Positions 4,228-59,917 of a stretch of DNA of 64,000 nt are shown here, one piece after another. The notes below the pieces were generated by a model, which was given only the letters and a program-made list of their open reading frames with translations, searched no databases and was not told the DNA's origin. The position numbers were made by a program, and so were the translations under genes. Where the stretch lies: positions 54,126,001 through 54,190,000 of the forward strand of contig NC_092351.1 of assembly GCF_963676685.1 (NCBI RefSeq). The letters run 5' to 3'. This DNA comes from Mytilus edulis (lineage: Eukaryota). Each line of letters opens with the position of its first letter. The stretch's first letter is position 1.

Positions 4228-6585
4228 TTCAATACCGAATTCATGTTCATGCAATGCTTAATTTTGAAGGTAACCTCTTAACTACGGTAAGCATTTTGTT
4301 GTCCATATAGGTATACCGAGCATTAGAGAGGTAAAACAAAATGTGTCAAATACGATATCTTCCTATGTTGAAATTAACATAAAACATTGCAAGAGATCAT
4401 ACCTTTGATTCTTACTAGAAAAATAAGAATGGTTGTACTTAGAAGTTGACCATTTAAGCACATTTAAAGGGCAATTATTTTATTTGAAAATGCTTTCTCG
4501 AAACCAACCTTTTTCAGTTATACAGTTAACAGACTATGTATATATGTATTTTTAGTACGATCTTCTTTTGTTTTAAAATTCAAAAAGAAAGTTTTCGAAA
4601 TTTAAAAGTGTCATCAAAATATATTTACTCTGAATCTTAACGTGTACACATAAAATTAATGATCAAATATAAATAAAGACATTCTTAGAAAATTATGTAA
4701 ACGTTATGTTGGATACAAGTTTATCATTTAAGGATCATACAGAATTAACAACATCAGTATATAACATACCTGTCATCGTAGTTGATCTGTTACCGTTAAC
4801 GTGGCAATCTGTGTTCTCGTTTCTAACTGTAATTGTTTGCTATTCTATTTAAATATCAAAATACCACCTACACATTACTTATGGCTGTATGTCAATCATA
4901 CTTTTTCATTGGATAAGTTTATCATGTAAGCATATTGTTATAAGTAGCAGTCAAAGGTTAAACCATAATTTAGCAATAGACGGAAATAGAAAGAAGGTTG
5001 AGGTACAATAGACGGAAAAGGTGTCTTGAATATTTATTTTTAGAAAATGATAAAAAGAATGGCTCAAACTACCAACAATTTACACATTTCCCGTTAAGAA
5101 GATATACATGTAAGAGACATCCATAATGCAATTCCCAACAATCGATAATCTTATTGCCCACTGATGTTCATTTACATGTAATATAATTTTTTTCAAGAAA
5201 TGACACAACAACCGTTGCAAAAAGTATCACCATTACCAAACAAAACAAAAACTTTTTTTTGAGGTAAACGATTCTGTGTTTGAAGTATAATTATATTAAG
5301 TCAATGTGAAGTTAAAAAGATACACACACTTAAGTTATTTAAGGTATCAAAATGCATAGCTCATTCTGCATTGATAGTGATAAAAGGCCACAATTTGGTA
5401 TTCAGTTATGTAGTATAACTGGTTAATAGAATCTTTAAACTTATAATATTGATTTGAATCTGTATACGTAATGACAAAAGGTCAATTGTGGTGTTTCTTG
5501 GATGTCATAAAATGTTGGCCTTGGAATATTTGACCAAGCTCACAAATAATTGATATGAGTCAGGGATTTACTCAAAAAATATTTTACACATTAACATTTT
5601 TATGAATACATTTTGTAGTAAAGTATTTTGATTAGGAAATACTGTGTCTAACATCTAAAAGCAAATCCAAGATACTTAAATACAATATAAGAAATTAAAA
5701 GTATCAGGAAAAAAACACAGACAACGTCATGACCAGAAAAAGGCGGACAGACAAGGTACAGAGCACAAAACACTGTGTTTCAATTTCAATTATCGAGGAA
5801 AAGCAATTTCGTAGTATTTTGTGTTTAATTCATAAGGAAATTTCTAGAAATGTTAAAGTGTCATTAAGTTTATATTTACCCTCTACATTAACTTAAACAC
5901 AGACAATTAATGATCATATATAAATAAAGACATGCTTAGAAAACGTAAATTATATAAACGTTATGTTGTATACTAGTTTATCATTTAAAGATCATGCAGA
6001 ATTAACAACTTCAGTGTCTGATTGCAGTTGAGATTAAAGAACAAATAAGAATGTTACTAAGCAAAAAAGCAGATATTTTTATAAGGTCGGCACATATAAA
6101 GAAAATAGTAAATTGTGGAGCTTATAATACATAAACAGGTACACAAGAATCACCAAAAATATACTGAAAGGTAGCAAAAACCACGAAAGCCAACAAGACC
6201 AAATTGATATTGAAATCCAAACATAAATATATAAACAACGTTCAACGTACAATTAAACAGAAGGTGTGGTATGATTGCCTATGAGACAGCTTTAAAAGAT
6301 AGACATGACACAGAATTTCACATTAAAGGTCACTATACGGCCTTTTCTGTACTAGAGTGCACGTCGTAAAACTATAACACACAACAGAATAGACGCACAA
6401 TGCAAGCTTAAAACAAGATAACCACAAACTAGAACAAAGAAATTAATAAAGGTATGTATTTGGCACATGAATTACATTTGTATAATCAGGTCTGTTGAGG
6501 ATTTCTTACTTTCTACACTTTTTATCGGCAGCTTTCAGTATGGTGTTTTAACGCAAGGAAAAAGATATATTAAAACAATACATCT

Positions 6586-6627
6586 AGTTTTCAATTTCCT
6601 TTTAACAGGAAGTTTTCACTTCCACTT
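6586..6627 (-). promoter_or_regulatory. ISRE/IRF-E cluster (block X copy 1)
   Basis: AGTTTTCAATTTCC ... GGAAGTTTTCACTTCCACTT; one substitution in the distal IRF repeat. Confidence 0.5.
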
Positions 6628-8674
6628 AAACTAATAATAAATATACTTGTATTCATATTCGTTCACAATGTATAACAAAGAAAACTTTTTTGCTTTTATA
6701 AAGAATATGTTTTCGACAAAAAAAACGAATTTTATCAAGTACATGTTAACACGCTTTATCGATCAAATTTCGTTTACTTGAGACAAATGATAGATAAGTG
6801 GCAAATATTTCATACATATTCGGAAAGAGAACATAAAAATCATAACAAATAGGTAGACCTGGATCAACAGGGATGAAAGACAATTGATAAGGAATGTCAG
6901 TAAAAAGGTTAATTTTGATAGGGAAAGTCCTTTAGCCTTGCAATAAGCTACTAATGGACCATACAAAAATTAAAAAGGGTTGTTAACGTTTAGAGACCAA
7001 AGCATTCCCTCATAATAAAATATTGAAGTCAAGTCGTCTTAGCTGCGAATTAATACGTCCAAAACAGATAAACTGATGTCCTGTTTTGCCAGGCAGTTTA
7101 CTGTCGATCGGACGAAACCAGAAATGTCAATACGGCATGACTTTATTTCTGTACACATTTCAAATGTTCGTACATCTTCACCTGACAGACAGATAGTTTT
7201 CAAAAATCTATTAAAAAGTGATATCAAAAATAAAAATCATATTCATATATAATGAAATTTATGAACTTCCTCCGAAGTTTTGTATTATTATTGTGATAAG
7301 AAAAGCTCATTTGGCACTTCAGTCCAGATGAGCTTCAAAAGTTACATACAAATCGAGCTTCAAGTAAAATCTAAAAAAGGAAAGTATAAAAGCTGACAAA
7401 ATAAAGCAAAGACAGACAAAATTATCACACAAAGAACAGACCGCAAACGCTTAGTTATATTTTAATTATGATACGAAACGTTTACATTACTGCAATACAA
7501 TAATAGTTGAAATGCAATAATATAAAGCTATATTTACAAATATGGATAAAACAAAAAACATTCCAAGCTGATTTCAGATTTTTTGAGATTTCATCTACTT
7601 TCGTAAAAAGTAAAATTACAAAGAAAACTGAACTCCGAGGAAAGTTCAAAACGTAAAGTCCCTAAATCAAATGGCAAAACCAAATGATAAAAAACATCAA
7701 ACGAATGGACAGCAACTGTAATTTCCTGACTTGGAACAGGCATTTTCAAATGTAGAAGATGGTGGATTGAAACTGGTTTTATTTATAGTAAGCCAGTCGT
7801 TTGCACTTTGTATTAGTTAAGTTTATGTCGTTTTATATAACCGAAAGCAGGAAGATATTATTTCTTTTAACACACGAAACTAACTTTACTTTACACTTAC
7901 ATGAGATAATTAGTTATATTTTCCTTTCAGATGATCCTGAATCATTGTCGTAAGTGGTTCGTACTTTTGATCTGATTTCCATTTGTGACCATGCTGAAAA
8001 TTGCTAAATTCTTCCTTTTTATGTGAAAACATAACATAAATATCCTTATATGTATATTTCAGTAAGTAGAATTATAAGTAAAATGTACTTTTGGTTTTTG
8101 AATATATTCAAAATTAGCAGAATAGCATATACTATCTAAAATAAAATTCAAGTTGTCGATCTTCAAAAAAAAATAAAAATTCTATGTCTTTTTTTATATT
8201 TCTTTAATTTGTCTTCAATGCCTAAGTCCGTCCTATACTTTTTCTCCCTTGTCAGCCTATTCTAGAAATATCCATGCTTTTCTCAATTCCAAATTTATGT
8301 TGCACAAAAAGGTCAAAATAATTATCATAGTTATATACATATGTACATAAACCCCGAAAGTATGTTAACGTGTTATTTCTGGTCTTTTTTGCTCTCTCTT
8401 TAATAACACTCCACAGTGTGGTGTGTAGTTTCCTAATTTGGTCCCTGAGGAATTTTTAAATATGAATGATAATGCGCAATACAATTTATTTTGTATAACT
8501 GATGATCAATATAGCCCTCAATGTGGGTCAAAAGGAACATCAAGATCCTGTTTTGTGGTTAGTTTTTTGTATGAAAGTCCGTATTATCATATAAATATCA
8601 ATCATTGGTCCGAAAAATATTGTTTTTCTCAAACTTTTTGTTACACAAACTTTGAGAACTAAGAGTTCAAAATA

Positions 8675-16359: not shown

Positions 16360-18258
16360 ATTTTCAATTACAAACGCGTTTTGCAGAATCTCGATATTGA
16401 CGACTTCAAGTCTAAACCTCCTGATTGCACTTGTGCTAGTTCCCAATTCATATATAATCCTGCTGGCCACGTTATTACCGGTGACCTTAACATTGTTAAT
16501 AACACTTCTCTACGAAATGTGTTATCGAAAGGTCCAAAATATCGTGAGCCTAAATTCATCAATTGGAAATACAACTTTAACATTTTGATGGACTCAGTCG
16601 AGGATTATGCCAGGCAATGGGCTAAACGTGAAAAGGAAGTCGTAGACACTCTATCCGAATGGATTAAGGCAGTGAGGTTGTTAATACAAATCAGAATCAA
16701 GAAACTGAATGGGTCCATTAATGCCCATGTTACGTCAATCTTTAAAGACCCAAATGTTGCTAAACACTTATCCGACCTCCATGATAAATATGTTGTTGTC
16801 CCCGCAGACAAAGCCCCAAATAACATCGTTTTTGTCTGTTAAAGTCACTACATTAATTGCTTGATAAACGAATTAGGTATAGACAATTCACTTGGAAACT
16901 CAACATATACCCTCACGACACTTACCAAAGAGGAAATCCTGGATAATCATAGGTCTGTTCTTTGTTCATTTGGTATTTCAACCAAAGATGAAGAACTGGA
17001 TCTTCCATCACTGTATTGGATACCTAAACTACATAAGTGTCCTTACAAACAACGGTATATTGCTGGGTATTCCAAGTGCTCCACGAAACCTGTTTCTAAA
17101 TTATTAACATCTATTTTATCAGCAATCAAAGACGGGCTTCAAAGTTATTGTGAAACTGCCTATTCTAGAGGTGGCGTGAATCAGATGTGGATACTTAAAA
17201 ATTCCAAAGATCTTTTAGAGTACATACAATCTAACTCTCTTTCATCTTGTAACAGTATTAAAACATTTGACTTTTCTACTCTCTACACAAGTATTCCACA
17301 TTCCAAACTAAAAGACAAATTGAAAGAGTTGGTATTACTTTGCTTCATATAAAAGAATGGCCAACGTAGATACAAGTATCTTGTCTTAGGGAGGGATAAA
17401 TCATACTTTGTAAAGAATCACTCTGATTCAAACAAAAAATTCTCTGAAACCGATATTATCAAGATGCTTGATTTCTTGATTGACAACATATTTGTAACGT
17501 TCGGAGGACGTGTTTTTCAACAGACTGTCGGCATCCCAATCGGAACAAACTGTGCCCCTCTACTTGCCGACTTGTTTCTTTATTATTATGAGGCTAACTT
17601 CATGCAGGAACTTCTTAGGAAGAAAGATAAGAAGTTAGCAATATCCTTTAACTCTACTTTCCGCTATATAGATGACGTTCTTTCACTAAACAATTCAAAC
17701 TTTGGTGACTATGTGGAACGCATCTATCCCATCGAATTGGAGATAAAGGATACAACAGATACAGTTAAGTCGGCTTCATATCTTGATTTACATCTAGAAA
17801 TTGACAATGAGGGTCGGTTGAAAACAAAACTTTACGACAAAAGAGATGATTTCAGCTTTCCAATTGTGAACTTTCCATTTCTAAGTAGCAACATTCCAGC
17901 AGCACCTGCATACGGGGTATATATCTCCCAATTGATACGATATTCCCGTGCTTGTATTTCCTATCATGATTTTGTTGATAGAGGGTTACTGCTCATAAAG
18001 GAAGCTATTAAACCAAGAGTTCCAAATATGGTGAAGCAGAAATCATCCCTTCGTAAATTTTACGGACGCCATCACGAGTTGGTTGACCGTTATGGAATAA
18101 CCGTTTCACAAATGATATCGGATATGTTCCTTACGTCGTAACTACAATTCCCTTCCCTTTCATGAATGTGACCTACCGAATTAGACTATTTACCGGATTT
18201 GTAATCACATAAGCAACGCGACGGGTGCCACAAATGGAGCAGGATCTGCTTACCCTTA
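16360..18258 (+). mobile_element. 5'-truncated Penelope-like retroelement (Naiad-like), inactivated RT
   Basis: CxC..GHVITGDL, PADKAPNN, YWIPKLHK, FDFSTLYT, GIPIGTNCAP and RYIDD motifs. In-frame TAA stops at 16840 and 17350. The ORF ends at KFYGRHHELV with no C-terminal GIY-YIG. The 3' UTR is cut at ~18258. Confidence 0.9.
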
Positions 18259-22288: not shown

Positions 22289-23134
22289 ATACTATGCAAC
22301 ACGAAAAAGCACAATTAATTTGAAGTCCAATATTGTTGTTGATAAATTAATTTACAAGTCGTTTATAAAAACAAAAAACCATCTCCTCAGGAACAGATGA
22401 TACATATATTGTCTACTCTGTCGGACTTTTTATGCACATATTTTTGACTTTATTGGAATTTGGTTCATGACTATGTACACAAACAATAATTGCTATTATG
22501 ATAGGTTATTTATAGAAACGGCGGTCGGTAATTCATTGTTTAATCGACAAAAAAAAAGAGAATCAAGCTATGTTTGTAGTACGTTTGTCTTTCGTTAATA
22601 TGTTTATGGAAGGTAATAACAAAAACACTGCATCCAACCTAAAATATAATCTTTTCAATAGACTTTTAAGATTCATTCGAGTACTCGCGAGTACTCGAGT
22701 ATCATGACTGAGTATCCAAGTATTAATTTTCAGATATTTTGACATCCCTAGTTTTAAGCGAAGTTATCCTTTGTAGTTCTTGTATATTTTTAACAAATTA
22801 ACTACAAAAGAGAAAAGGGGCATATGGAAGAGTATTATCCCTTCTTCGTTTCTGTCATTCTTTAATCTGCTCCTTATTCCATAGTCTATAACCGTCTCTG
22901 CAACCACAAAAAAAAAATTATGAAAAAGTTATGAATAGAGTTTTATTTGTTCATGATAAAAACAACTTTCAAATGGTTACAACAATCAACATTTACGATA
23001 TCCTTCTTGTACAGAATTTCTAATTTTAAGATTTGTACTTAACAAAATATCCAGTTCTAGAAAACCAAAAGATCGATTAAATCGAAATACATGCTAAATG
23101 TGTTTTACGAGTAGTTCAACTGAATGCACAAATA

Positions 23135-25098
23135 TCACAACGAGTTCATTAGTGTTAGTCTCTTTACGGAAGTATTACAACTGTAATCCGGCTCTATTTC
23201 AACTGACTGCATGAATGCTTGTCGGGCAGATTCGTTGTCTCCTAATAACTGAAAAACAATTCCAAGAATAGTGTATTTTTTAGAATGGTATAGTTTTATA
23301 TTTTCTATAAAATAGTTTTCGCTTATAACATTTTGTAAAGAGTGGAGGCAATCCTGACATTGTCTTGCATTATTGAGTTGAAAATGACACACAAACTTTA
23401 GAAAATAACCATACACTATAGAGGAAATACGATATCCTCTATTTTCCACTTCCATTTGTAGTTCGTTTGGTATCAGCCAAGAGTTATGTACAAATTTCAT
23501 ACTACCAATCAGCATTATTTTCCACAACTGTACAATACTGATATTCTGGAATAATTTCAGTTTAAGGGTTTGATAATGAATATCCGACATATCCATGAAA
23601 AATTGTAGTTTTTCGGGAGAACATTTCGATATAGAATATGAGATGATGTGTAATGCCTTACTATACTGTTTAGACTTATAGAAAAACGATGCTAACATCA
23701 GCCATCCAGAAACAGCGTCGTGATAGATATTCTGTAACAGAGTACAAATACATGATTTATACTGCTTGTATTGATGTTTATTACATGTTTTAGTACTATT
23801 CAGTGGAGCAGACTGCGCATATTGTGAACCCAACACTGACATGTAGTTTGTATAGACGTATTTAAGTGAGGAATTGTCACTGAAAACTATCTGGTGTATT
23901 ATTTTTGTGGATGTGTAAGTGTTGCATTTAGTAGAAATAAACACATCATTTGTAAACCATAATAATACGGAATGAAGTGTTTTTACCACCTCGATAGTAT
24001 GCAATGTGTGTGGTTGAATGTGATCCTTCCACATTGATTCATGAAAATTAGATAATTGATTTGAAAATAAGATACATCGCCATCTGTAACTATGCAGGGT
24101 ATACAGTTTCTCCAACAGTATTTCACGAGCACGTCCCTCTATTTTGTTCTCAAACATGTTGTTCTCTGGTATAAAGTAATGTAAGCAAACTGAATAGTCA
24201 ACAGAATATATCAGTCTGCTAAAACATCGCATAAAACAAGGTATAAGATTTTCTGGTTTCCATATTGATTGTGGTAATTCTTCTGATATCCAGAAAATGA
24301 TTGTTTTCAAAAAGTATGAACAGAGCAAATCTTCACATTCGGTGTAGGTTGCTATAACATCTTTCAAAAGAATTTTTAGGAGGGCATAACATATCAATTG
24401 AGTGTGTGTAAAAGTATTAATTAGAAATTTTTCACCAACAGAAAAGGAAATTCGCCATTCTATATCCTCTTTTGGTGATCCCTTAACTCCGATTGGTACA
24501 AAAAGTACTCCGTGTTTTATAATACTTTGTTTGACATTATAACTAGGCCATGAGTTATTTGATCTTGTTATCCATTGTGATGCTTGTGATATCCATGTCT
24601 TACAATGTAAACAAAAGGCAAGGTCAAACTTTCCTTTTTTGTCAGATAAGCATGGTCCATGTATTACAGTGCTATCTGTTTTACGCATGAGCCATTGCTT
24701 ATATAATGCGCTCGGGAAATAATGTTTGCCATTATATTCCTCAAATTCTTGACATAGAAATTGAGAATATACTTGTTCTTGTACTAGTAACTGAGTGAAA
24801 CCAGGTTTTACATCATCTGTTTCCATTAACACATAATTAACATTTGAATTGTTAGCAGCTTTAATGTCTTCATAAACCTCCATGTTTTTAATTACATACA
24901 TAATATCTAAATCACTACCTCTCATCTCAAGTCCTTCACCAAAACTCCCACTTGTGATAACGGTACGATAGGTATCGCTCTTTAATTTATCCCTGGCGGC
25001 ATTCATAAGTCTGAGATTTTTAACATAATTCTCAGATCGCACTATGTAGTGACACATATAACGATACAGTGCTAATGATATAGCTTTTGTTTCTATGT
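23135..25098 (-). CDS. cGLR (Mab-21 NTase plus TPR-like C-terminus), copy 2, large coding exon
   Basis: Uninterrupted ORF with SGSFGEGLEMRGSDLDIM, KFDLAFCL, WRISFSVGEK, SYFLKTIIFW and HYFIPENNMF. TPR-like YTILGIVFQLLGDNESARQAFMQSVEIEPD. Acceptor ttatttcag|ACATAGAA at 25098, so the ORF-track start at 25144 is probably intronic. Confidence 0.92.
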
Positions 25099-25748
25099 CT
25101 GAAATAACATGAAATATATAAATTATGAAGTAATAGGGATACATAGATCTACTATAATAAAATTGAAATTTAGCTTCAGTGAGTTGTTAAGATGACAATT
25201 TTTCATAACAACAGACGAAGAGATTTTGAAATGACTTTGTTGATTGTAATAAAATAATTGATGTCTACCATTTCAAATGTGATAGTCATACTCAACATCT
25301 CCATTTGCTCATATGTCGAAGATAAACTGAAAACACACGCACAAAAAAAATGTCCTTTTTAAACTAGTAATCGAAAACAGTTTGAATATTTCTTAGTTAA
25401 TTGTATGTCTTAATTTTCTAACCTTCCATTTCCTTTTGTCTGTTAATCTTTGATATGATTTGGTCGGGATAAATTATTTATGTAATTTTTTTTTCAGGAA
25501 TAAAAAAACACAACATTTCATTGTCCTGGTTATAATTCATAATTTAGAAAATACAGATTAGTATTTATAATATTTCAGTATCATAGTTTGATATGTATGG
25601 CTTTTTTGTTCCTTTAATTGGAGATCTAGTTTTTAAACAAATACTTCTTCTTTTAAAATTTTCCTTCCCTCCTCCCTCCCCTTAATAAAATGAGTTTGCC
25701 CCATTGTTGTTTTTATTGCTGTATGTAAGATATTTATATATTATTTAG

Positions 25749-26092
25749 GAACATTATTTTTCAACTACATTATATAACCAAGACAAATTCACTGATATGG
25801 ATTTTGTAGTTCATGGACCATGTATATCTTACACAGAAGGAACGTATGACCATGCCATATGCTTACATTGTCCAACATGGGTATCAAAAGCATCACAATG
25901 GAAAACAAGATTAAATAACTCATGGCCAAGTTATAACTATAACAAATTATTATAAAACATGGGGTACGTTTTGCACGAATCGGAGTTAAGGGATCTCCAA
26001 AAGAATGGCGATTTTTTTTTCTGTTGGTGAGAAGCTATTATAAGACACAACACAGATCGTATTCCTGAAATTTTTGACATTGTTATTTTTAA
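25749..26092 (+). pseudogene. cGLR NTase-core fragment, + orientation (duplicate of 1677-2027)
   Basis: Same VVHGPCISYTEGTYDHAICLHC...NNSWPSYNY segment inside the duplicated block, antisense to copy 2. Confidence 0.9.
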
Positions 26093-26369
26093 CCCATGTC
26101 GTTATTTTAAAATAATCACATCTTTCTGTTACGATTTGAATAGATACCTATAGTCAGATATTTATACCATCTTATAATCAATCATATGATCGATTCACAA
26201 TGAATATTTGTGATACTAATTAAATTGTAAAATTCGACAAAAGCTGACTGGGTAATAAAACTGTCGTTTTAGGGAGTAACATTTGTTCTCGATTGCAAAT
26301 GCACACTGTTTATACCATAAAGTGATCTTGGTTTCAAACATTTGACTGATCTGCCCTGATCATATTCAT

Positions 26370-26672
26370 TATAAAATTGAAAATGGAAATGGGGAATGTG
26401 TCAAAGAGACAACAACCCGACCACAGAAAAAACAACAGCAGAAGGTTACCAACAGGTCTTCAATGTAGCGAGAAATTCCCGCACCCGGAGGCGTCCTTCT
26501 ATAGCTGGCCCCTAAACAAATATATACTAGTTCAGTGACAATGAACGCCATACTAACTTCCAAATTGTACACAAGAAACTAAAATTAAAATAATACAAAA
26601 CTAACAAAGGCAAGAGGCTCCTGACTTGGGACAGGCGTAAAAATGCGGCGGGGTTAAACATGTTTATGAGAT
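26370..26672 (-). mobile_element. Short SINE-like retroposon specific to block X copy 2
   Basis: Absent at ~2295-2310. Carries the ttaaccccgccgc..cctgtcccaagtcaggagcc core and a gttgtctctttgacacattccccat tail. Confidence 0.75.
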
Positions 26673-27399
26673 CTATAGATTTACAATCAATGTAGAAGAA
26701 TAAAGTCCAACTTGTTGTTATATAAAAACATAAAAAAAAATCAAACTATTCCCGTCTGACAATAAAACAAATGCCGAAGAATGGGATTTGACGTTCGTGA
26801 CACAACGCGGGGTATATTCTATACACAGAGACATCAAGAAGACATTACATTCAATGCTGCGTGTAGGTAGAGTGATGCACGTTAAAGATGTGATAGTACA
26901 CCTCATTTTGTGTTCGTACCAGGATATGTTGCTTGTGGCTGTCCGTATGTTCATTACTTTAATCCGATTTACCTAGTTTGCAGAACCTTCTATTTGGATA
27001 TTTGCTTTATTTGTTATCGTTTGGAATAAAAAGGAATATAAATATAATTGTGCTTGCGATTTTCATATTCTGCATTAAAAAGTAAAATTACAAAAATACT
27101 GATCTCAAAGGAAAAGTCAAATATGACAGTTCCTTATCAAATGGCTCAATCAAAATTTCAAACACATCAAACGAATAGGAAACAACTGTAATATTCCTGA
27201 CTTGGTACATGCATTTCATTATGTAGAAAATGGTGGATTAACCCTGGTTTTTTAGCTAGATAAACCTCTCACATGTATGACAGTCGCATACAATTTCGTT
27301 ATATTGACACTAATGTGGATACAAGGCATTAATGTCAAAAATAAGGGTACATCAATCTTAGGAGGAGGGTTCGTATTGCTGTCACTCGGATGTATTTAA

Positions 27400-28643
27400 G
27401 GGGCTCGCGGGTACAAATCAATTTTTTTAGGTATAGGATTTTGCTATTTTTTTCTATGAATAAACTTTATCCTACAGGTATATTTAGTAAAAAATTGAAA
27501 AAAAAATATTAGGTCGCCTTTCATTTAAGCTCACAATCTGCCTTCGAAAGAAACATGCATTTTTGTTAAGTTACTTTTTTCTGTTGAACAAATAGGAGAA
27601 AAAACGGTAACATCGAAGTAAAAAAAGAACTTATTTATAGAAATCGCTTAAATTTTACAGTAGTTTAGTTTAAAGGGTCACTAGCTGTCAAGTTCATGTT
27701 TACCGATTCAAATCAAATTCTCATATTTGATTTATAACAATGAAAAACATTTATCCAAACTATTAAATGTCTGAAATAAACAATAAATAGGAGACGGGCA
27801 TGAACATTCTTAGCTTCGTTTCGTGTGTTTTTTAGTCTATACGCCATCTAATTGATTATCGAGTTGACCTCTAAAGTCATCCGATGACCATTTTTAAGCG
27901 ATGTAAACATAAATTATAGATATTGATAGATTAAGGAAACTCGTGCTATTGGATTATTCTAGGTCTATTTAATTTCATATCATAGATGAAAATTAAATGT
28001 TTATCATCTTGTTTACTTGTATAAGAATGACTTTTTGTAGATCGAATCAGTCAATCAAATGATTTACCTTTGTTTCATTTTCAATGTTGACATTCTTTTC
28101 CTTAAAATAACTTTAGACATACAATTCAGTGACACGTGTTATCCATCTCAAGTCAAGGGGTAAACATGAAGTTCAAATGTATATGGATTCAATGAGGTTG
28201 AAATATTCACTCGTAAGTGAATAATTCATAATCAATGCTTTTAAGCTGATTTTGACAATATTGAACCATACTGGCTTCTAAAAGCTAATTTTTATTTCAC
28301 TATTTGCAATTGATTATTGATTGAGCAAAAAATAAATTATATTATATTTATTATATCTCTCGAAGCTAGTGCCAAGTACAGCTTATTTGAAAATGATAAT
28401 AAAAAATGTAGGTCATTGATGAATTAAAAAAGATATTTTTGGCATTTTTTCACAAAAGGGAGATAATTTGGAGCTTTTTCAAAAATATAAACATTGTAAA
28501 AGTCATTTGGGGCCACAACGATTTTTTGGGGGTTAATTTTTGTACCATATCATAACGTAACAACTGGTAGTGTGATAAATAAAGTTTGTAATGAAAAAAA
28601 AATGTTCAAATTTTTGCTGATGTTTTTGTACCCTCGAGCCTCC
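27400..28643. mobile_element. Duplicate of the nested TTAA transposon pair
   Basis: Same TIRs and the same nesting (inner element ~27674-28373), so both insertions predate the duplication. Confidence 0.8.
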
Positions 28644-29389
28644 TTCAATACCGAATTCATGTTCATGCAATGCTTAATTTTGAAGGTAACCTCTTAACTA
28701 CGGTAAGCATTTTGTTGTCCATATAGCTATACCGAGCATTAGAGAGGTAAAACAAAATGTGTCAAATACGATATCTTTCTATGTTGAAATTAACATAAAA
28801 CATCGCAAGAGAGTATACCTTTGATTCTTACTAGAAAAATAAGAATGAGTGTACTTAGAAGTTGACCCTTAAAGCACATTCAAAGGGCAATTATTTTATT
28901 TGAAAATGCTTTCTCGAAACCAACCTTTTTTCAGTTATACAGTTAACAGACTATGTATATATGTATTTTAGTACGCTCTTCTTTTGTTTTAAAATTCAAA
29001 AAGAAAGTTTTCGAAATTTAAAAGTGTCATCAAAATATATTTACTCTGAATATTAACGTGTACACATAAAATTAATGATCATATATAAATAAAGACATTC
29101 TTAGACAATTATGTAAACGTTATGTTGTATACAAGTTTATCATTTAAGGATCATACAGAATTAACAACATCAGTATATAACATACCTGTCATCGTAGTTG
29201 ATCTGTTACCGTTAACGTGGCAATCTGTGTTCTCGTTTCTAACTGTAATTGTTTGCTATTTTATTTAAATATCAAAATACCACCTACACATTACTTATGG
29301 CTGTATGTCAATCATACTTTTTCATTGGATAAGTTTATCATGTATCCATATTGTTATAAGTAGTAGTCAAAGGTTAAACCATAATTTAG

Positions 29390-29500
29390 CAATAGACGGA
29401 AATAGAAAGAAGGTTGAGGTACAATAGAGGGAAATAGAAAGAAGGTTGAGGTACAATATAGAGGGAAATAGAAAGAAGGTTGAGGTACAATAGACGGAAA
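29390..29500. repeat. Nascent minisatellite, 3 x ~32 bp
   Basis: ggaaatagaaagaaggttgaggtacaata occurs three times here and once at 4975-5018. Confidence 0.9.
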
Positions 29501-29843
29501 AGGTGTCTTGAATATTTAATTTTAGAAAATGATAAAAAGAATGGATCAAACTACCAACAATTTACACATTTTCCGTTAAGTAGATATACATGTAAGAGAC
29601 ATCCATAATGCAATTCACAACAATCGATAATCTTATATTTTTTTTCAACAACCGTTTCAAAAAGTATACCCACAACCAAACAAAACAAAAACTTTTTTAA
29701 AGGTAAACGATTCTTTGTTTGAAGTATAATTATATTAAGTCAACGTTAAGGTAAAAAGATACACACACTTAAGTTGTTTAAGGTATCAAAATACATAGCT
29801 CATTATGCATTGATAAAAGGCCACAATTTGGTAGTCAGTTATG

Positions 29844-30020
29844 CAGTTGATACGATATTCTCGTGCTTGCATTTCCTATCATGATTTTCTTGATAGAGGG
29901 TTGCTGCTCACAAGGCAGCTATTAAAATAAGAGTCCAAATGGTGAAGTTGAAATCATCCCTTCGTAAATTTTATGGACGCCATCACGAGTTGGTTGTCCC
30001 TTTGGTATATTTCGTCCCTC
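29844..30020 (+). mobile_element. Internally deleted PLE 3' fragment inserted after the duplication
   Basis: The RT end is fused directly to the terminal motif tccctttggtatatttcgtccctc. The site is empty at 5401-5420; probable TSD is tatg. Confidence 0.85.
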
Positions 30021-31200
30021 ATGTATGTAGTATAACTGCTTAATAGAATCTTTAAACTTATAAATTGATTTGAATCTGTATACGTAATGACAAAAGGTCA
30101 ATTGTGGTGTTTCAAGGATGTCATAAAATGTTGGCCATGGAATATTTGACCAAGCTCACAAATAATTAATATGAGTCAGGGATTTACTCAAGAAATATTT
30201 TACACATTTTTATGAATACATTTTATAGTAAAGTATTTTGATTTGGAAATACTGTGTCTCACATCTAAAAGCAAATCCAAGACACTAAAATACAATATAA
30301 GAAATTTAAAGTAGAAGGAAAAAACACAGACAACATCATGACCAGAAAAAGGCGGACAGAAAATGTACAGAGCACAAACATTGTGTTTCAATTTCAATTA
30401 TCGAGAAAAAGCAATTTCGTAGTATTTTGTGTTTAATTCATAAAGAAAATTTTAGAAATGTTAAAGTGTCATAAAGTTTATATTTAACCTCTACATTAAC
30501 TTAAACACAGACAATAAATGATCATATACAAATAGATACATTCTTAGAAAACGTAAATTATATAAACGTTATGTTGTATACTAGTTTATCATTTAAAGAT
30601 CATCCAGAATTAACAACTTTAGTTTCTGATTGCAGTTGAGATTAAAGAACAAATAAGAATGTTACTAAGCAAAAAAGCAGATATTTTTATAAGGTTGGCA
30701 CATATAAAGAAAATAGTAAATTGTAGAGCTTATAATACATAAACAGGTACACAAGAATTACCAAAAAATATACTGAAAGGTAGCAAAAACCACGAAAGCC
30801 AACAACACCCAATTGATATTGAAATCCTAACATAGATATATAAACCACGCTCAAAGTATATTTAAACAGAAGATGTGATATGATTGCCAATGAGACACCT
30901 GTCAAAAATTGACCAAATGACGCAGAATTTAATATTATAGGTCACCATACGGCCTTTTCTTTACTAGACTTCACGTCGTAAAACTATAACTCACAACAGA
31001 ATAGACGCACAATGCAATCTTAAAACAGGATAACCACAAACTAGAACGAAGAAATAAATAAAGGCAAGTATTTGGTACATCGATTATAATCAGGTCTGTT
31101 GAGCATTGCTAACTTCTTGTACACTTTTTTATCGGCAACTTTCAATATGTTATATTATATTATGAACACAAGGAAAAAGATATATTTAAACAATACATCT

Positions 31201-31242
31201 AGTTTTCAATTTCCTTTCAACAGGAAATTTTCACTTTCACTT
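31201..31242 (-). promoter_or_regulatory. ISRE/IRF-E plus kB-like cluster
   Basis: Minus strand reads AAGTGAAAGTGAAAA and GGAAATTGAAAACT (GAAANNGAAA), with GGAAATTTTC between them on the plus strand. Conserved at 6586-6627 and 57989-58030. Confidence 0.6.
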
Positions 31243-31521
31243 AAACTAATAATAGATATACTTGTATTCATATTCGCCCAAGACGAATAACAAAGAAAGC
31301 ATTTTTGCTTTTGTAAAGTACATTTTAAAAAAAAATTAAAAAAATCTCCAGTAGATTTTAACACGCTTTATCGATTGTTTTTTGTTTGCTGTAGATATAA
31401 AGTGGCAAATACTTTGTTTTTGCTTACTGTACGTTTTCGTTTTTTTTTTACATAAACGAAACAGGAAGATATTATTTCTTAACACACAAAACTAACTTTA
31501 CTTTACACCCACATCAGATAA

Positions 31522-32452
31522 TTAAGGTCTTTCCTTTTACAAAAGGGAAAGACCTTACTGTATTTCTTCTGTTTATTATTATTATTCTTCCGCCAAACTT
31601 TGACGAAGTTAGCAGCCTAAACCGTAAGACGTGTCGCTTTCATGTTCACACTTTGTATCGGTGTCATGAATACCTATCTGGAACTCACCCTAGTCGAAAT
31701 ATTTTGTCGGTTCGGAGTAATCCCTCCGAAACCAAAAAACCTTGTTATCGTTCCAACACCGTAACCATAATAGGTAGAAAAAAAACAAAGGGTGAAATTT
31801 GTTCAGGACCAGACCCCAGTTCTTCGTTACATTTGGATCGAAAAGATTCAACGACTCATTGGTAGGGTTATGCCCCTATGAAAATTAACCGGTGTCGGTG
31901 GACCACCAAAACTCAGAAACCATAAGTCATAGAGACCTAGGATCTTCACCATTCATCATCAATTCATGTGACTTTGAAAAATACCTCAAGGTCAAATTTG
32001 TATGTTGACCTTGACCTTTGACCTAACACCTTGTTATGGGATAATCTCAGCAACCATTATACTTACAGAAGTTTTAAATAGTGGAAAATGTTTGGGTCAT
32101 TACCGCGCAACTTTGTTATATTTTGACCGGAGAGATTTGACCTTTCTTTAAGGGGCATAAAGCCTGTTTTAGGTTTCTGAAAAGACTAAATCAGCTTTTT
32201 CTATATAACCAAAGGTCCAAGACCCATGGGGTCTTCAGCAATGACATTGGGGACTAATGACCTTGACAAAGGTCAAAAGGTCAAAGGTCAAGGTCATGTC
32301 CCATATAGCGAATTTAGTGTTTTTAACCTTATTTAAAGGATTTTCAGTGTGTTTTAAAAGCTATTCAATACATTCTACGTCTTTTTGAACATTTATTTTA
32401 CATTACAAAAGGAAAGACCTCTCAATTGTTCAAGAACAATTGACAGTTTATT
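31522..32452 (+). mobile_element. HINE/DINE-1-like (Helentron-associated) element
   Basis: 5' aggtctttcc..ggaaagacct hairpin, (att)n microsatellite, internal tgaccttgacc motifs, and a 3' subterminal ggaaagacct plus caattgtt-caag-aacaattg stem-loop. Absent from the other X copies. Confidence 0.75.
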
Positions 32453-33820
32453 ATTTATATTTTCCTTTCACATGATTCTGAATCATTCTCGTAAGTGGTT
32501 AGTACTTTTGATCTGATATTCATTTATGACAATACTGACAATTGATTAATATTTCCCTTTAATATGTAAACATACCATTTATATTCGTATATGGACATTT
32601 TAGTAAGTACAGGTATAAGTATATTGTACTCATAGTTTTTGTCAAAGTTAACTTTAGTTGTTGATCTTCATAAGAAAACAATTCAAATGTGTATGTCTTT
32701 TTTTAAAATTTATTTTAGGTTTCTTTGCTATTTTCTTCCCTCCTAAATTTTGCCGCCCTATTAATTGTCCTATTGTGAACATTTTCTCCTGTTTTAGACA
32801 GTTTACGCTTTGTTGTCATATGAGATATAGTTTGCCTAAATCTGCTGACGTATTATTACATCGTTAGTAATTTCTCCCCATATATTGTGCAAATCACATT
32901 TCTAAGCTGCATTATTAATGATGAATATAGAGAAATTGATCAATAAGCACAGGAGGGTAAAATGATTAAATATGGTTATACAGAAGACCATCCATTTTTA
33001 AAGAAGTTAGTGAAGTGTTAACACACTTTTTTTTTTCTACACGAAGTTTTTGACGCAATTTTACAAAAAAATGAGACACGATTTGAATCGATTTTCTTGA
33101 TAGATATATGTAAACAGTTTCAGAACTGGTACAACTTCAAGCGATTTAAATTTTACTTCTGGCTATTTTTTTTGGAGGGAAATATGTAACAACTGGCCCC
33201 CTCCTCCTTGTTTGCATTATGTTATAACAAAAAAATGCAGATTTTTGCCATGAATACATAAAAAAGAAATTGTATTTTACTATTTTAACGTTTAGATATA
33301 AAACATGTAGGATATCTTTTACATACGCACATATATGACACAAAAATTGAGCTTGACTTGCAAGAAATAAAGGAAAAGGAGATGATAAAATTTATAAGGT
33401 TAACTTTTAATATTTTTCCCGAACTGTTCATTGATACCCTTAATTAACACTTTTACGTTTGACGCCAGTTATATTGATAATTTTTGTTAGACGTTATGAC
33501 AAAAAAATGTATGACGTCACTTATATGTTCTATACACATTAAACAATTATAATACGATAACTGTAGAGACTAAGTAGAATAACATTGGTACAATTGAGTA
33601 CTCTTATGACCATTTTTAGTTGCTAGATTTTCTTTTTTTCAATTATTTTAATTATTTGTTTATAGTTTGGCATAGAATAAAACAGTTGATAAACATTGTC
33701 TCCATACTTATAAATGGTAATTTAATACGGCTCATTATCCCCAACAAATCAACACAACACACAACAGAACACAATACAATGTATGAATGTGCCTATCCTA
33801 AGTCCGCAATATTTATTTAA

Positions 33821-47756: not shown

Positions 47757-49735
47757 TCACACTAAGTTCATTAGTAACATTCTATTTACAGACGTGTTGT
47801 ATCTTTGATCCGGATCTATTTTCACTGACCGCATAAATGCTTGTCGGGCGGATTCATTGTCTCCTAATAACTGAAAAACAATCCCAAGAACAGTGTAAGC
47901 TTTATATTGAAAATTTTTATCATTTTCAATAAAATATCTTTCTTCTATAACAAGTTGTAAAGTATGTATGCAATCCTGACATTGTCTGACATTATTGAGA
48001 TGATAATGACATAAAAACATTAGAAAATAGGCATAAACTATAGAGGAAATGATAAAGGGTCTATCCTCTACTTCCATTTGTAGCTCATATGGTATTAAAC
48101 GTGAATTTTCCTTAAATATTATAAAATCTACAAGTATTATTTTCCACATCTGTACCATACATTTTCTTTGAAATACTAACAAATCGTTCAATCGGACATG
48201 AGTATCCGACATAGTCATGAAGCGGTTTATTTTTTCGGGAGTACACTTGGCTATAGAATACAATATTATGTGTAAAGCGTTATTATATTGTTTTGTCTTA
48301 TAGAAAAACGAAGCTAACATCAGCCATCCAGATACAGCGTCATGATAAATATTCTGTAACAGAGTACAAAGACAGGAATTATACTGTTTGTATTGGTGTT
48401 TATTACAACTTCTAGTACTGTTCAGTGGAACAGACTGCGCACATTGTCCACACACCAATGATAAGTAGTAAGTATATAAGTATTTAAGTGAAGATTGGTC
48501 ACAGGAAATAATCTGGTACAGTCCTCTTTTGAAATTATAAGTGTCCACTTTTGAATCAATAGGCACAATATTTGCCAAACATAATAATTTTGAATTTAGT
48601 GTTTTTGCAACCTTAATAGTATGCAGTGAATTAGGTTCAATCTGAACAATCCACGTTGATACACTAAAGTTAGATACTTGATCTGAAAATAAGATGCATC
48701 TCCATCCGTATCTATACAGGATATAAAGTTTCTCTAACAGTATTTCACGAACACCTCCCTCTATTTTGTTCTCAAACATATTGTTTTCTGGAATGAAGCA
48801 ATGTAAGCAAATTGAATACTGAACACAATAAATAAGCCTGCTAACACATCGCATAAAACAAGGTATAAGATTTTCTGGCTTCCATATTGATTGAGGTAAT
48901 TCTTCTGATATCCAAAACATAATTGTTTTAGAGAAATAAGAACAAAGTAAATCTTCACAATCGGTGTAGGTTGCTATCACATCTTTCAAAAGAATTTTTA
49001 GGAGAGCATAACATATCAATTGAGTGTGTGTAAAAGTATTTATTAGAATTTTTTCACCAACAGAAAAAGAAATTCGCCATTCTATATTCTCTTTTGGTGA
49101 TCCTTTAACTCCGATTGGTACAAAAAGCACTCCTTGGTTTATAATACGTTGTTTGACATTATAACCAGGCCATGAGTTATTTGATCTTGTTATCCATTTT
49201 GATGCTTGAGATGTCCATTGCTTACAATGTAAGCAAAGGACTTGGTCCATAAATCCGTCTTTGTCAGATATACTTGGTCCATGGATTTTTGAACCATAAA
49301 TATTCATTGTATTATCAAGGAAACCTTGTTTGCATAATGTGCTCGAAAGATAAAATGTTCCATTAAGTTTTTCACAGAACTGTAGTAAACTTTCAAATTG
49401 ATTACCAGTAAGTTCCACCACCATCTGAGTAAAACAAGGTTTAAGGTCGTCTGTTTCCGTTCTCAAATATATAAGATTTGGATTGAGTCGAGGTTTTATT
49501 CTATCTGTATCAACCTCAATAAATTTTGCTACATCCATTATATCTAAATCACTCCCTCTCATCTCAAGCCCTTCACCAAAACTTCCACTTGTGATAGTGG
49601 TATAATGGTTGTTGTTTGTCATAACATCCCTGACAGTATTCATCAGTCTTAGTGTTTTAACATGATTTTCTGTTCCAACTATGTTAAAACACATAAAACG
49701 ATACAGAGCTATTGATATGGTTTTTGTTTCCATGT
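47757..49735 (-). CDS. cGLR (Mab-21 NTase plus TPR-like C-terminus), copy 3, large coding exon
   Basis: Uninterrupted ORF with SGSFGEGLEMRGSDLDIM, FMDQVLCL and WRISFSVGEK. Acceptor ttatttcag|AC ATG GAA, with ATG at 49733. The 3' flank is homologous to that of copy 2. Confidence 0.92.
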
Positions 49736-54690: not shown

Positions 54691-55096
54691 ATATGTTAAA
54701 ATAAATGAATTAATGATATTACAGAATTTACAACTTTAGTATATAACATACCTGTCATCGTTGTTGATCTGTTACGGTTAATGTAAAAATCTATGTTTCC
54801 CGTTTTATCTGCAATAGTTTGCTATTCTATATAAATATTACTATACCACCTACACATTACTTATGGCTGTAGTTTATAATTAATGACACGTATTTGTCAT
54901 CGGATAAGTTGATCATTTCCGCATCTATTATACATTTATAAGTAGAAGTCAAAGGTTAAACAATAATTTGAAAATAAACGGTAATAGAATGAAGGTTGGG
55001 GTAAAATGGAGGGAAAATGCGTCATGAATATTTATTTTTGGAAAATGATATCAAGAATGGTTCCAATGTACAACAATTAATATGTTTTTTTGTTAA

Positions 55097-56320
55097 GGGT
55101 CATCCATAATTGTCAACCATTTTCCAAAGTGTACAAAACATACACTTTTTCAGACCCCTCACCCTCCCTCAAAAAGTGTACATCAACCATTTTCAGATTT
55201 CAAGAGAAGAATCAATCATTCTTAATAAAAAGAAGATATCCTGTCTATTATATTTTAGATTAATATAGAAATTTGCATTGAAAAAAAACTAAAACATATC
55301 TGACTTTTTATTTGATGACATATATCTGTGATGCTTGTGTTTTGTCAGAATAAAGAATACAAAGATAAGTGTTTCCCCTATCACACAGTGGGAATGGTAA
55401 CTCCAATAAAAAGGGCACCTAGAGCATGCAAAAGATTAACAAAAGGGCACATAAATTATGCTAAGAATCTACGAAAGGAAATGGTTATATTGCATTTGTA
55501 AAGTATGGACTGACAGTTCTTGATGGAATCAGAGCTCAAGACAGCAATCAATAAAAGTGTAATGTTTTATTTAAAAATATTTTGAGTTTTTAAATTTCCC
55601 ACCGGTATTTTTATTTAAAAGGTCCCTGTAAATATGCCATTCATGGCACTATTATCGTTTGTGTATATATACTGTAACGTGCACATCTATTGGATATTTT
55701 TTAAGTTAAGGTTAAACTTCACATGAAGGTGCTCCTAATGAATGGAGGCTTATGCTAAGAAAAATAAGTTTACTTCCGGTTTACTGGTTTACTATTTTGG
55801 AATGCATTATGGACAAGGAAATTAATCAAAGGACCAGTTTAAAATCTTTTCACAAAATGGCGTCTTGTCAAAATCAAAACATTCAAAGAATTTAGTGTTT
55901 CCATCGATTTTGTTTATTAAACAGAGTTAAACGATAACGATCTATAATAAATCAGGTGAAATTGACAATCAGGGGTACTGAGAAATGCTTGCAAACTTTT
56001 TATTTAAATAATTTACTAGTTCACATTTTTGAAAGATTTAGTTTTTATAATTGATTTGATCTTTTAATCGTTAAATCCCGATTGCGTAGACTTATGATAT
56101 CGAAATAAATATCATCAAGTGAAAATAATAAAGAAGAAATAAGAAGAGAAACACACCCAAGCCAATTATCGATTTTATAAATCGACTTTCCCTACGGAAA
56201 CCATATAAATTCCGGAAATTAAAAAAAATGTACGGTAAAAATGTTGATTTTTTAACCCCCCTTCCCCCAATTGTACGTTTTGTACACTTTGGAAAATGGT
56301 TGACAATTATGGATGACCCC
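55097..56320. mobile_element. PIF/Harbinger-like MITE
   Basis: ~45-bp TIR GGGTCATCCATAATTGTCAACCATTTTCCAAAGTGTACAAAAC with a TAA TSD. The empty site gttaagtagata is seen at 29574-29585. Confidence 0.85.
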
Positions 56321-57988
56321 TAAGTAGATAGACATGTAAAAGTCACCCAAAATGTTATTCACAGAACAATCAATAATCTGATTGACCGCAGATGCTAATT
56401 TTTTATATCTATTTCAAAGAAATGACACAAAAACCGTTGCAAAAAGTTTCACAATTACCAAACAAAACAAAAAGGTAAACAGTTTTTTGTTTGAAGTATA
56501 ATTGAATAAAGTCAATGTGAAATTAAAAGGATACACACACTACAGTTGTTTAAAGTACCAAACTGCATAGAAAAGGTTAGGTAACTTCTGCATTGTTAGC
56601 GATAAATGGCCACAATTCGGTATTCAGTTATGAAGTATAACCGCTAAATAGAATTTTTAAACTTATAATATTGATTTATATCTCGATACGTAATGACAAA
56701 AGGTTGAATGTGGTATTTCAATGATGTTATACAAATGTTGACATTGAAATATTTGACCAAGCTTTGTCACTTCACAGATAATTAGCATGAGTCAAGGATT
56801 TACACAATAAGATAAGATACATATTAACATCTGTACGAAATACATTTTGTGGTAAAATATCTTAATTGGGAAAATCCAAGATCCTAAAACATAACAAATT
56901 TAAAGAATAAGCAGAAGAAAAAACAGTCAACAACATTACCGAAAAAGGTGAACAGATAAGAAACATACCACAAAACAATGTGTTTCAATTTAAACTGTAG
57001 AGCAGAGCATTTGCTTTTGGCAATCAGTGTTTGCAGTTAAGATTGAAGAACACATTAAAATGTGAATATGAAAAAAAAAGATTTTTTCGAAAGGTCGTCA
57101 TATCTTAAATAAAGAGTAAATTTTAACGCTTATTATATATAAACAGATACACAAGAATCACCAAAAATACACTGAAAAGTATCAAAAACCACGAAAGCAA
57201 CACCCAATTGATTTTGAAAACCAAATATAAAAATACAAACAACGTACAACTAACATATAAGCTGTAAAATCGAATGAATGCATATTAGATAACTCTTAGA
57301 TAAAATGACACCAAAATTAGCATTTATAGGTCGCCGTACGACCTTCAACAAAGAACAAAGCCAATACAACATAATCAGTTTTAAAAGGCCACCGAAAGGA
57401 CAAATGTAAAACAATTAATACGAGAAAGCTAAAAAGAAGTATAGGATACAAAATAGTGAACGGAAACAAATATGTAACACAGTAACAGACGACAACCAAT
57501 GAATTACAGGTTCCTGATTTGGGACAGACACATACAGAATGTAGCGGGGTTACATTAATGCCAACCCCACTCCTAACCTGAGACAGTGGTATAACAGTAC
57601 AACCTTATGAAAACAATCACTAAATCTTGAGCATACATATTCAGTCCATATAACATGAGATGGTAACTGTTCAAAACATGATGCGTTTTAACCTATATTA
57701 CATGTGCACAAACATCATTGTTTGCATAATTAAACTACTCGTGGTTTAACTATAACACACAAAACAGAAAAGACTCACAGTAAAAGCTAAAAACTAGATG
57801 ACAACAAACTAGGAGGAAAAAAATGAAAAGGCAAATTATTTAACATATAAATAAGAACCAGGTGTGTTGAGCATGTTGAGTATTGCTTACTTCTTGCACA
57901 CTTTTTATCTTCAACTTTCAATTTTTAATTTAATATAATTAACACAAAGATGAAGACATAGTTTAACAATGTATATATGTACATGTAT

Positions 57989-58030
57989 AGTTTTGAATTT
58001 CCTTTTGACAGGAAGTCTTCACTTTCACTT
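57989..58030 (-). promoter_or_regulatory. IRF-E cluster (block X copy 3)
   Basis: TTCACTTTCACTT (AAGTGAAAGTGAA on the minus strand) is retained in the most diverged copy. Confidence 0.5.
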
Positions 58031-59635: not shown

Positions 59636-59917
59636 ATTCTAATGAAACTGACAGAAAACAACGTTAAAACATGTTTTTAAAATCTGTCATATGCCGTCAC
59701 CGCTTGCGCGTACGTCCCATAGCATCAATTGTCAATTGATGCCATGTAAGAAAGTGACGTTATCCAATCAAAATGAACGTTACAAACGTTGTTGCATTAG
59801 AATTGCCAATGTTAGTTATGTTGACTTACTCCGCATCAGATTTGCTACAAATACTTTACTTTCAGAGATAATAGCCATTTTACCCATATGATCTATTTTT
59901 AATATAAAAAACATTAT

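What the first reader, a model, noticed from the sequence alone, without database searches (positions are those of the whole stretch)
31100..31242. Conserved ISRE/kB-like cassette beside a conserved splice donor: interferon-stimulated-gene-like promoter travelling with each duplication
Seen: two GAAANNGAAA elements flank GGAAATTTTC. About 80-100 bp downstream on the minus strand, all three X copies have a GT donor at the homologous position (aa|GTAAGA at 6509, aa|GTTAGC at 31113, aa|GTAAGC at 57890). X copies 2 and 3 each lie 5' of a minus-strand cGLR exon or remnant. Inference: an IRF-driven promoter with a short exon 1 splices across ~6 kb to the single coding exon. That would be a positive-feedback loop (cGLR to STING to IRF to cGLR) in an animal without canonical interferon.
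Basis: partly seen in the sequence, partly recalled or inferred. Interest (0 to 1): 0.7.

Follow-up and report, generated by a model that had tools for sequence, protein, structure and literature searches.

The report
Mussel cGLR IRF/NF-kB promoter module
The flagged motif cluster is real but lies 2 kb upstream of the gene's true start-codon mini-exon and is likely an enhancer rather than a first exon, while dozens of other genes of this mussel cGAS-like family carry an interferon-response-type motif, often with an NF-kB-type motif, right in front of that mini-exon, which would likely let immune signalling switch these predicted sensors on.

Summary
A spliced contig from a public run joins the coding-exon acceptor (25098) to a mini-exon ending at 29186 that supplies the start codon (M-T-D), and NCBI's protein model agrees. 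Nothing was laid on 31011-31367 in 4 of 4 runs (low depth, weak negative). The 31113 donor is weak (5 of 9), and 13 of 24 nearby GTs are invariant anyway. Two ISREs plus the kB-like word occur together in only 1 of 6 cassette copies, and only 6 of about 38 local paralogues have the cassette. It is still a modest local conservation peak, likely an IRF/ETS-type enhancer. Genome-wide there are 70 exact motif-plus-mini-exon matches against 1 control. In the genes next to the flagged cassette that proximal module has decayed. Binding, induction and feedback are untested.

The parts
31201..31245 (-). Flagged cassette: IRF1-like site (31238-31227), ETS-like TTCCTGT/AGGAA cores, second GAAANNGAAA (31213-31204); likely distal enhancer-type element, 2.0 kb upstream of the ATG
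31108..31116 (-).
29399..29474 (+). Three tandem units each holding GGAAATAGAAAG (ISRE-like), 207-282 bp upstream of the ATG; single unit in the other copies, broken in X3 and in the seventh copy
29245..29434 (-). Conserved proximal upstream region (inferred promoter), with paired GATA-like words and a TATA-like word (labels recalled)
29229..29240 (-). Decayed homologue of the family T1ISRE-type motif (AGAAACGAGAAC, 3 mismatches); no kB site after it
29186..29220 (-). Transcribed part of the start-codon mini-exon (ATG at 29192; ends ATG ACA G|GTATGT, donor 8 of 9); 5' end not mapped
25099..29185 (-). Phase-1 intron, 4087 bp
23135..25098 (-). Main coding exon of the Mab-21/cGLR-like protein with C-terminal TPR-like tail (656 aa with the mini-exon)
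4770..6640 (-). X copy 1: mini-exon donor at 4770 and cassette copy near 6590-6625; its nearest downstream Mab-21 exons lie left of the window (G000:C8:54123753 and 54118958)
54752..58030 (-). X copy 3: mini-exon donor at 54752 and diverged cassette near 57995-58030
47757..49735 (-). Main coding exon of the paralogue served by X copy 3 (NCBI model starts MTDMETK)

Best explanation
The 31204-31238 cassette is a modestly conserved motif cluster 2 kb upstream of the start-codon mini-exon (donor 29186) of a mussel Mab-21/cGLR-like gene and likely acts as a distal IRF/ETS-type enhancer rather than as the promoter of an exon ending at 31114. SHOWN: the gene is a mini-exon (ATG ACA G) spliced to one long coding exon. 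The cassette and mini-exon were copied together as one segment in 6 of 7 genes of this subfamily. Across the wider family a T1ISRE-type word, often followed 8-15 bp later by a kB-type word, sits 35-75 nt upstream of the ATG, and this proximal module is decayed in the subfamily that has the cassette. INFERRED: transcription starts just upstream of the mini-exon; mussel IRF and Rel proteins bind the proximal module, so that nucleic-acid or microbial signalling raises expression of many paralogues at once; in this subfamily the distal cassette and the GGAAATAGAAAG site about 210 bp upstream would supply IRF input in its place. UNTESTED: binding, induction, enzyme activity, and a loop through STING.
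For: Junction: a 505-nt contig of run X1 leaves the window at the acceptor into a 32-nt end whose first 22 letters match 29189-29210 and 4773-4794 exactly and 54755-54776 with 2 mismatches. The depth of 0.72 in bin 28869-29225 equals 35 letters at depth 7.31. NCBI models P0001 (100% identical, MTDIETK) and P0012 (MTDMETK) agree. The acceptor is kept in nearly all of about 38 paralogue 5' ends, with an ATG right behind it in 1. Cassette: the 45-bp window is 84% invariant against at most 78% in 182 overlapping flank windows; X3 against X2 39/45 versus 756/995 (p=0.065), L003 42/45 versus 826/995 (p=0.043). Family module: 45 of 76 candidates have at most 1 mismatch to GAAANGAAAGT in -100..-1, against 2 and 5 of 76 further upstream, 0 of 5 antisense and 72 of 3000 random; exact kB 9 of 76 against 10 of 3000. 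6 of 23 cluster medoids against a mean of 0.35 in shuffles. The top de novo 6- and 7-mers tile the motif. 70 exact matches genome-wide against 1 control, 62 of them within 25 kb upstream of a Mab-21 match, 43 genes. The motif is the reverse complement of HOMER T1ISRE as printed in PMC8100333. IRF, Rel and STING domains are encoded in the genome. Oyster IRFs activate ISRE reporters (PMC5557890).
Against: The junction rests on one contig of one run (RNA by guess), about 93% like this gene, so a paralogue or divergent allele; it is closest to the copy at C8:54118958 (8 of 9 listed substitutions, six copies compared). The NCBI model may not be independent of such data. No TSS was mapped. Cassette conservation is not significant in 3 of 5 pairwise tests and the window was chosen after the fact. 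AAGTGAAAGT is kept in only 3 of 6 copies. The IRF pattern was chosen, and all paralogues descend from one promoter, so counts are not independent; 17 of 23 medoids fail the 2-mismatch test (some are probably chance mini-exon matches). The kB word is exact mainly in the C8 51 Mb and 83-86 Mb groups and decayed on C13 and in the local cluster. The compensation idea rests on one subfamily.
Confidence: 0.55

Rival explanations
1. The cassette is a neutral passenger: A-rich sequence carried in a segmental duplication next to the real promoter, and the ISRE/kB look in X2 is a chance state of one lineage.
For: Full arrangement in 1 of 6 copies; about 0.9 close pairs expected in 660 kb; a seventh gene with the same mini-exon (C8:53878338) has no cassette; pairwise conservation tests are borderline or null.
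Against: It is the best conserved 45-bp window outside the mini-exon region (0 of 182 flank windows reach it), free of indels, with invariant ETS-like cores; X2's site is an 11 of 12 IRF1 match.
Confidence: 0.3
2. One reading: the cassette is an alternative promoter whose short non-coding exon uses the 31113 donor, splicing to 25098 (translation from Met16) or into the mini-exon.
For: AA|GT is present at this place in all six copies, scoring 5-7 of 9; C13 paralogues have two or three tandem mini-exons, so alternative first exons look common in the family; several database models start at the Met16 equivalent; RNA depth was too low to exclude a rare isoform and the joint list was truncated.
Against: Depth 0 on 31011-31367 in 4 of 4 runs while the mini-exon bin had depth in 4 of 4; 13 of 24 GTs in 31200-30950 are invariant in all six copies, so a conserved GT means little; indels cluster beside the donor; the AGs before the mini-exon lack a pyrimidine tract (32% against 59-68% at true acceptors).
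Confidence: 0.13
3. The family motif upstream of the ATG is conserved for another reason (a core-promoter or 5'UTR element, or a site for another factor such as PRDM1/Blimp-1), not for IRF-driven induction.
For: No TSS map, so the motif could lie in the 5'UTR; A-rich words are common in this genome; the PRDM1 consensus resembles IRF motifs.
Against: Exact identity to T1ISRE and pairing with exact kB sites at near-constant spacing; the same pair occurs at two C3 places with no Mab-21 match nearby.
Confidence: 0.2

Closest known systems
Vertebrate cGAS as an interferon-stimulated gene (two ISREs in the promoter; Ma et al. 2015 as cited in PMC7829187, passage seen)
   Same: A Mab-21 nucleotidyltransferase gene with ISRE-type sites near its start, which would make a sensor inducible by its own pathway.
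   Different: Here one T1ISRE-type word plus a kB word precedes a 3-codon mini-exon in a family of more than 100 genes; no binding or induction shown; no canonical interferon.
Oyster cGAS/STING-TBK1-IRF axis (PMC8218723, abstract and passages; PMC7064767, passages; PMC5557890, passages)
   Same: Bivalve cGAS-like transcripts rise after poly(I:C), and oyster IRF2/IRF8 activate mammalian ISRE reporters.
   Different: In the passages seen, no native cis-element of a cGAS-like gene is given. CgcGAS has Mab-21 plus zinc fingers, not the TPR-like tail of this family.
cGLR family (Li et al. 2023, PMC9980059, passages)
   Same: Mab-21 NTase core plus helix bundle, acidic triad, extreme radiation in bivalves, TPR architecture listed among cGLRs.
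   Different: The paper's passages concern enzymes and ligands, not promoters; activity of this subfamily was not tested here.
IFN-beta enhanceosome-type IRF plus NF-kB composite elements (recalled, no call)
   Same: Adjacent IRF and kB sites close to the start of an immune gene.
   Different: Single IRF element with one-base spacer; spacing 8-15 bp; cooperative binding untested.

Membership tests
ISG-type promoter (flagged cassette) | ISRE/IRF consensus match | tested here: met
   11 of 12 to IRF1, IRF2 and ISRE consensus in X2 and L002 only; 2-3 mismatches in the other four copies
ISG-type promoter (flagged cassette) | NF-kB site | tested here: not met
   2 or more mismatches to p65 consensus in 6 of 6; the word varies between copies
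ISG-type promoter (flagged cassette) | Lies next to a used first exon | tested here: inconclusive
   No depth on 31011-31367 in 4 low-depth runs; the junction seen uses 29186; leans against
ISG-type promoter (flagged cassette) | Conserved above flanks | tested here: inconclusive
   Local peak (0 of 182 flank windows reach it) but p=0.043-0.66 pairwise
ISG-type promoter (family module) | ISRE-type word at fixed position near the gene start, above background | tested here: met
   45 of 76; 6 of 23 medoids; 70 against 1 genome-wide; top de novo words
ISG-type promoter (family module) | kB site beside it | tested here: met
   Exact in 9 of 76, at most 1 mismatch in 18 of 76; 7 of 23 medoids against 0.85 in shuffles; decayed in many paralogues
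ISG-type promoter (family module) | IRF binding and stimulus-dependent induction | not testable with these tools
   Needs EMSA/ChIP, reporters and stimulated RNA-seq
cGLR (Li et al. 2023 criteria) | h[QT]GS X8-20 [DE]h[DE]h X50-90 h[DE]h motif | tested here: met
   ITSGS...DLDI...FDL: triad D65, D67, D161, the third aligned to the VDL of 8gjy; deviates from the literal pattern by S for Q/T and a spacer of 91
cGLR (Li et al. 2023 criteria) | Homology over NTase core and helix bundle | tested here: met
   PF03281 and PF20266 above cut-off; cGAS and cGLR1 chains at E about 1e-11
cGLR (Li et al. 2023 criteria) | Predicted structural homology | not tested
   No fold was run
cGLR (Li et al. 2023 criteria) | Ligand-activated cyclic dinucleotide synthesis | not testable with these tools
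   Needs biochemistry

The most novel reading that the evidence does not exclude
A whole radiation of mussel cGLR-like sensors is wired as one interferon-stimulated-type regulon: each gene inherits a plug-in unit of T1ISRE, kB site and three-codon start exon, units are duplicated in tandem as alternative first exons, and where the proximal element decays new IRF sites arise upstream (the flagged cassette, the triplicated site at 29399-29474). This would give the native IRF element of a lophotrochozoan and a cGLR-STING-IRF/Rel feed-forward loop without canonical interferon.
Probability: 0.35. Interest if true: 0.7.

Novelty: new member of a known kind. Interest (0 to 1): 0.45.

Why it matters
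In the papers I saw, mollusc IRF function is tested on mammalian ISRE reporters. A motif identical to a vertebrate type I interferon response element, kept in front of dozens of diverged cGLR-like paralogues and often paired with a kB site, is a ready native target. It makes testable which mussel IRF binds what, whether the expanded sensor family is inducible as a group, and whether paralogues with intact, kB-less or decayed modules respond differently. The flagged cassette alone is of low to moderate interest.

Tried and rejected
No listed holder was on record as RNA; this is no evidence on expression. The first lay (22800-33500) was swamped by high-copy repeats and its joint list was cut (31 joints not shown); neither junction was listed. 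Mate direction could not be used for strand, as both directions occur on the coding exon in X24. An exact pattern for the cassette core found only 3 known copies, so it is not a dispersed repeat by that test. A coding role for an exon ending at 31114 was rejected: stops in frame in 6 of 6. An acceptor in front of the mini-exon was judged unlikely. The two C3 places with the IRF+kB pair, the C6 pair and six cluster matches could not be tied to a listed Mab-21 exon. Earlier findings of the scan: none by place or by words. Literature searches listed no paper on promoter motifs of bivalve cGLR genes; I saw listings and abstract starts only, the library lacks most subscription papers, and I read no supplements (Table S1 of PMC9980059 and the expression tables of PMC7064767 may bear on this family). 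PMC13319465 and PMC5869526 (passages) gave context only.

Full report
Setting. The window lies in a tandem cluster of Mab-21 genes of a Mytilus mussel; the identical protein is named M. edulis by its source. Three long minus-strand frames carry PF03281 and PF20266, two with TPR-like tails. A search with one N-terminal half scored 137 of 935 candidates in the genome, and about 38 paralogue 5' ends lie in the 660 kb that I examined around the window. The protein has an acidic triad (D65, D67, D161) and matches cGAS and cGLR1 structures by sequence, so it meets two of the three bioinformatic cGLR criteria of PMC9980059 (passages); the fold and the activity were not tested.

The observation. All quoted letters are at the quoted places. 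The kB-like word overlaps the first ISRE. The cassette has six copies in the genome, all in this cluster. Aligned, both GAAANNGAAA words are intact in 1 of 6 and the kB-like word in 2 of 6; the invariant letters are TTAAGTG, AGTGAA, TTCCTGT and AAAGGAAATT, which read more like ETS cores plus an IRF half-site (labels recalled). X2 and its twin have an 11 of 12 match to the IRF1 consensus, rare in background (0.08% of 4000 random 55-mers); the other four have 2-3 mismatches, and no copy is closer than 2 mismatches to p65. The 45-bp window is 84% invariant across X2 and four other copies (L004 left out because it lacks part of the unit) against at most 78% in 182 overlapping flank windows. Pairwise tests give p=0.043 and 0.065 for the two most diverged copies and nothing for the other three. 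A close pair of GAAANNGAAA words is not very rare here: about 0.9 expected in 660 kb by my arithmetic, 4 seen; shuffles gave none but underestimate single words.

The donor and the real gene structure. The 31113 donor scores 5 of 9 against the recalled consensus (5-7 in the six copies), 13 of 24 GTs in 31200-30950 are invariant in all six copies, and every copy has an in-frame stop with no later ATG upstream of the donor. The acceptor at 25098 is real: a T-rich tract and AG are kept in nearly all paralogue 5' ends, in phase 1, with an ATG directly behind in 1 row. Laying four runs on 22800-33500 gave depth 0 on 31011-31367 in 4 of 4 and depth above 0 on 28869-29225 in 4 of 4; depth on the coding exon was low (none in X23, about 1 in X24) and 31 joints were not shown, so this is a weak negative. 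A second lay on the acceptor showed one contig of run X1 leaving the window there into a 32-letter end; no such end was listed for the other three runs (21 loose ends not shown). Its letters match 29189-29210 and the homologous places in X copies 1 and 3, where the exon ends ATG ACA G|GTATGT, donor 8 of 9. The contig is about 93% like this gene and closest to the copy at C8:54118958, so the junction is shown for the subfamily and inferred for this locus. NCBI's models for this gene and for the one at 49735 begin MTDIETK and MTDMETK, and many homologues begin M-A/T-D. The intron is therefore 4.1 kb, not 6 kb, and the gene has two coding exons. The mini-exon is likely the first exon: the AGs before it lack a pyrimidine tract and the DNA around and upstream of it is conserved (X3 232/275, p=0.0016). 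This mini-exon type has 7 full copies and a partial one; 6 of 7 carry the cassette 1-3 kb upstream, because both lie in one duplicated segment.

The family module. Looking for other mini-exons by the pattern ATG RCA G|GT, in the cluster and in 10 kb upstream of 60 further genes chosen from the 137 (40 on C13, 20 elsewhere on C8), showed a recurring word AGAAACGAAAGT 47-75 nt before the ATG, in many cases followed by GGGAAATCCCC-like words. Of 82 sense matches, 76 had distinct upstream sequence; 45 of 76 have at most 1 mismatch to GAAANGAAAGT in -100..-1, against 2 and 5 of 76 in the next two 100-nt windows, 0 of 5 antisense matches and 72 of 3000 random windows. An exact GGGRNNYYCC (recalled consensus) occurs in 9 of 76 against 10 of 3000. 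The IRF pattern was chosen after seeing the data and paralogues are related, so I clustered them: 6 of 23 medoids carry it at 2 mismatches or fewer (shuffle mean 0.35, maximum 3) and 7 of 23 carry kB at 1 mismatch or fewer (0.85, maximum 4); 17 medoids fail the IRF test, some probably chance mini-exon matches. With no motif supplied, the most enriched 6- and 7-mers among 28 medoids tile the same word (ACGAAA 10 against 0.87 expected). Genome-wide the exact word plus mini-exon has 70 matches against 1 for the reversed control; 62 of 70 lie within 25 kb upstream of one of 140 listed Mab-21 matches on the same strand, 43 distinct genes, and 8 do not. The 12-mer is the reverse complement of HOMER's T1ISRE as printed in PMC8100333 (passage). 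IRF, Rel and STING domains are present in the genome. In the subfamily beside the flagged cassette the word is decayed (AGAAACGAGAAC at 29240-29229) and no kB site follows, while an ISRE-like site lies 207 bp upstream and is triplicated in X2.

How it most likely works. Shown: exon structure, co-duplication, the motif and its position. Inferred: transcription starts near the mini-exon, IRF and Rel proteins bind the proximal module and induce many paralogues together, and in this subfamily more distal sites, among them the flagged cassette, would take over IRF input. Untested: binding, induction, nucleotide synthesis and signalling through STING.

Comparison. Human cGAS is an ISG with two ISREs (PMC7829187, passage). 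Oyster cGAS transcripts rise after poly(I:C) (PMC8218723; PMC7064767) and oyster IRFs activate mammalian ISRE reporters (PMC5557890). An inducible cGAS-like gene in a bivalve is therefore expected. What my ten searches (listings only, no supplements read) did not list is a native cis-element for it. I rate this a new member of a known kind, interest 0.45.

Noticed in passing
window 25100-29434 against G000:C8:54093897-54098206: The intron and mini-exon are 98.7% identical over 4335 bp between the two paralogues while their coding exons are 92.5% identical (83% in one 200-bp stretch): recent gene conversion, exon swapping or diversifying selection on the protein.
   Followed up: partly
G000:C13:1.1-4.6 Mb (for example L071, L082, L087, L088, L094): Two or three tandem mini-exons upstream of one coding exon, each with its own T1ISRE-type word; candidate alternative first exons.
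   Followed up: partly
G000:C3:4617467 and C3:14081372: The same T1ISRE plus kB pair at similar spacing with no Mab-21 match in the DNA fetched; candidate promoters of other immune genes.
   Followed up: partly
G000:C8:53827046-53857471: A cassette, mini-exon and coding exon all on the plus strand in a mostly minus-strand cluster: an inversion carrying the unit, with 26 kb between mini-exon and the listed coding exon.
   Followed up: no
window 30425-30623: A duplicate (about 80%) of the intron start 28982-29174 without the mini-exon; absent from X3.
   Followed up: partly
window 25635-26371 and 1557-2302: Inverted, broken fragments of a Mab-21 exon inside the intron.
   Followed up: no
window 11199-13214: Paralogue with a frameshift near its 5' end (about 13135-13043) but a long open remainder.
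   Followed up: no
window 16333-18141 and 59903-61207: Reverse-transcriptase-like retroelement remnants; weak RVT_1 match for the second only.
   Followed up: no
window 26371-26674 and 30864-30897: High-copy repeat fragments with very high depth in RNA runs.
   Followed up: no
protein P0035: A homologue with an N-terminal TIR domain (PF01582/PF13676) ahead of the Mab-21 part; may be a real fusion or an annotation join.
   Followed up: no
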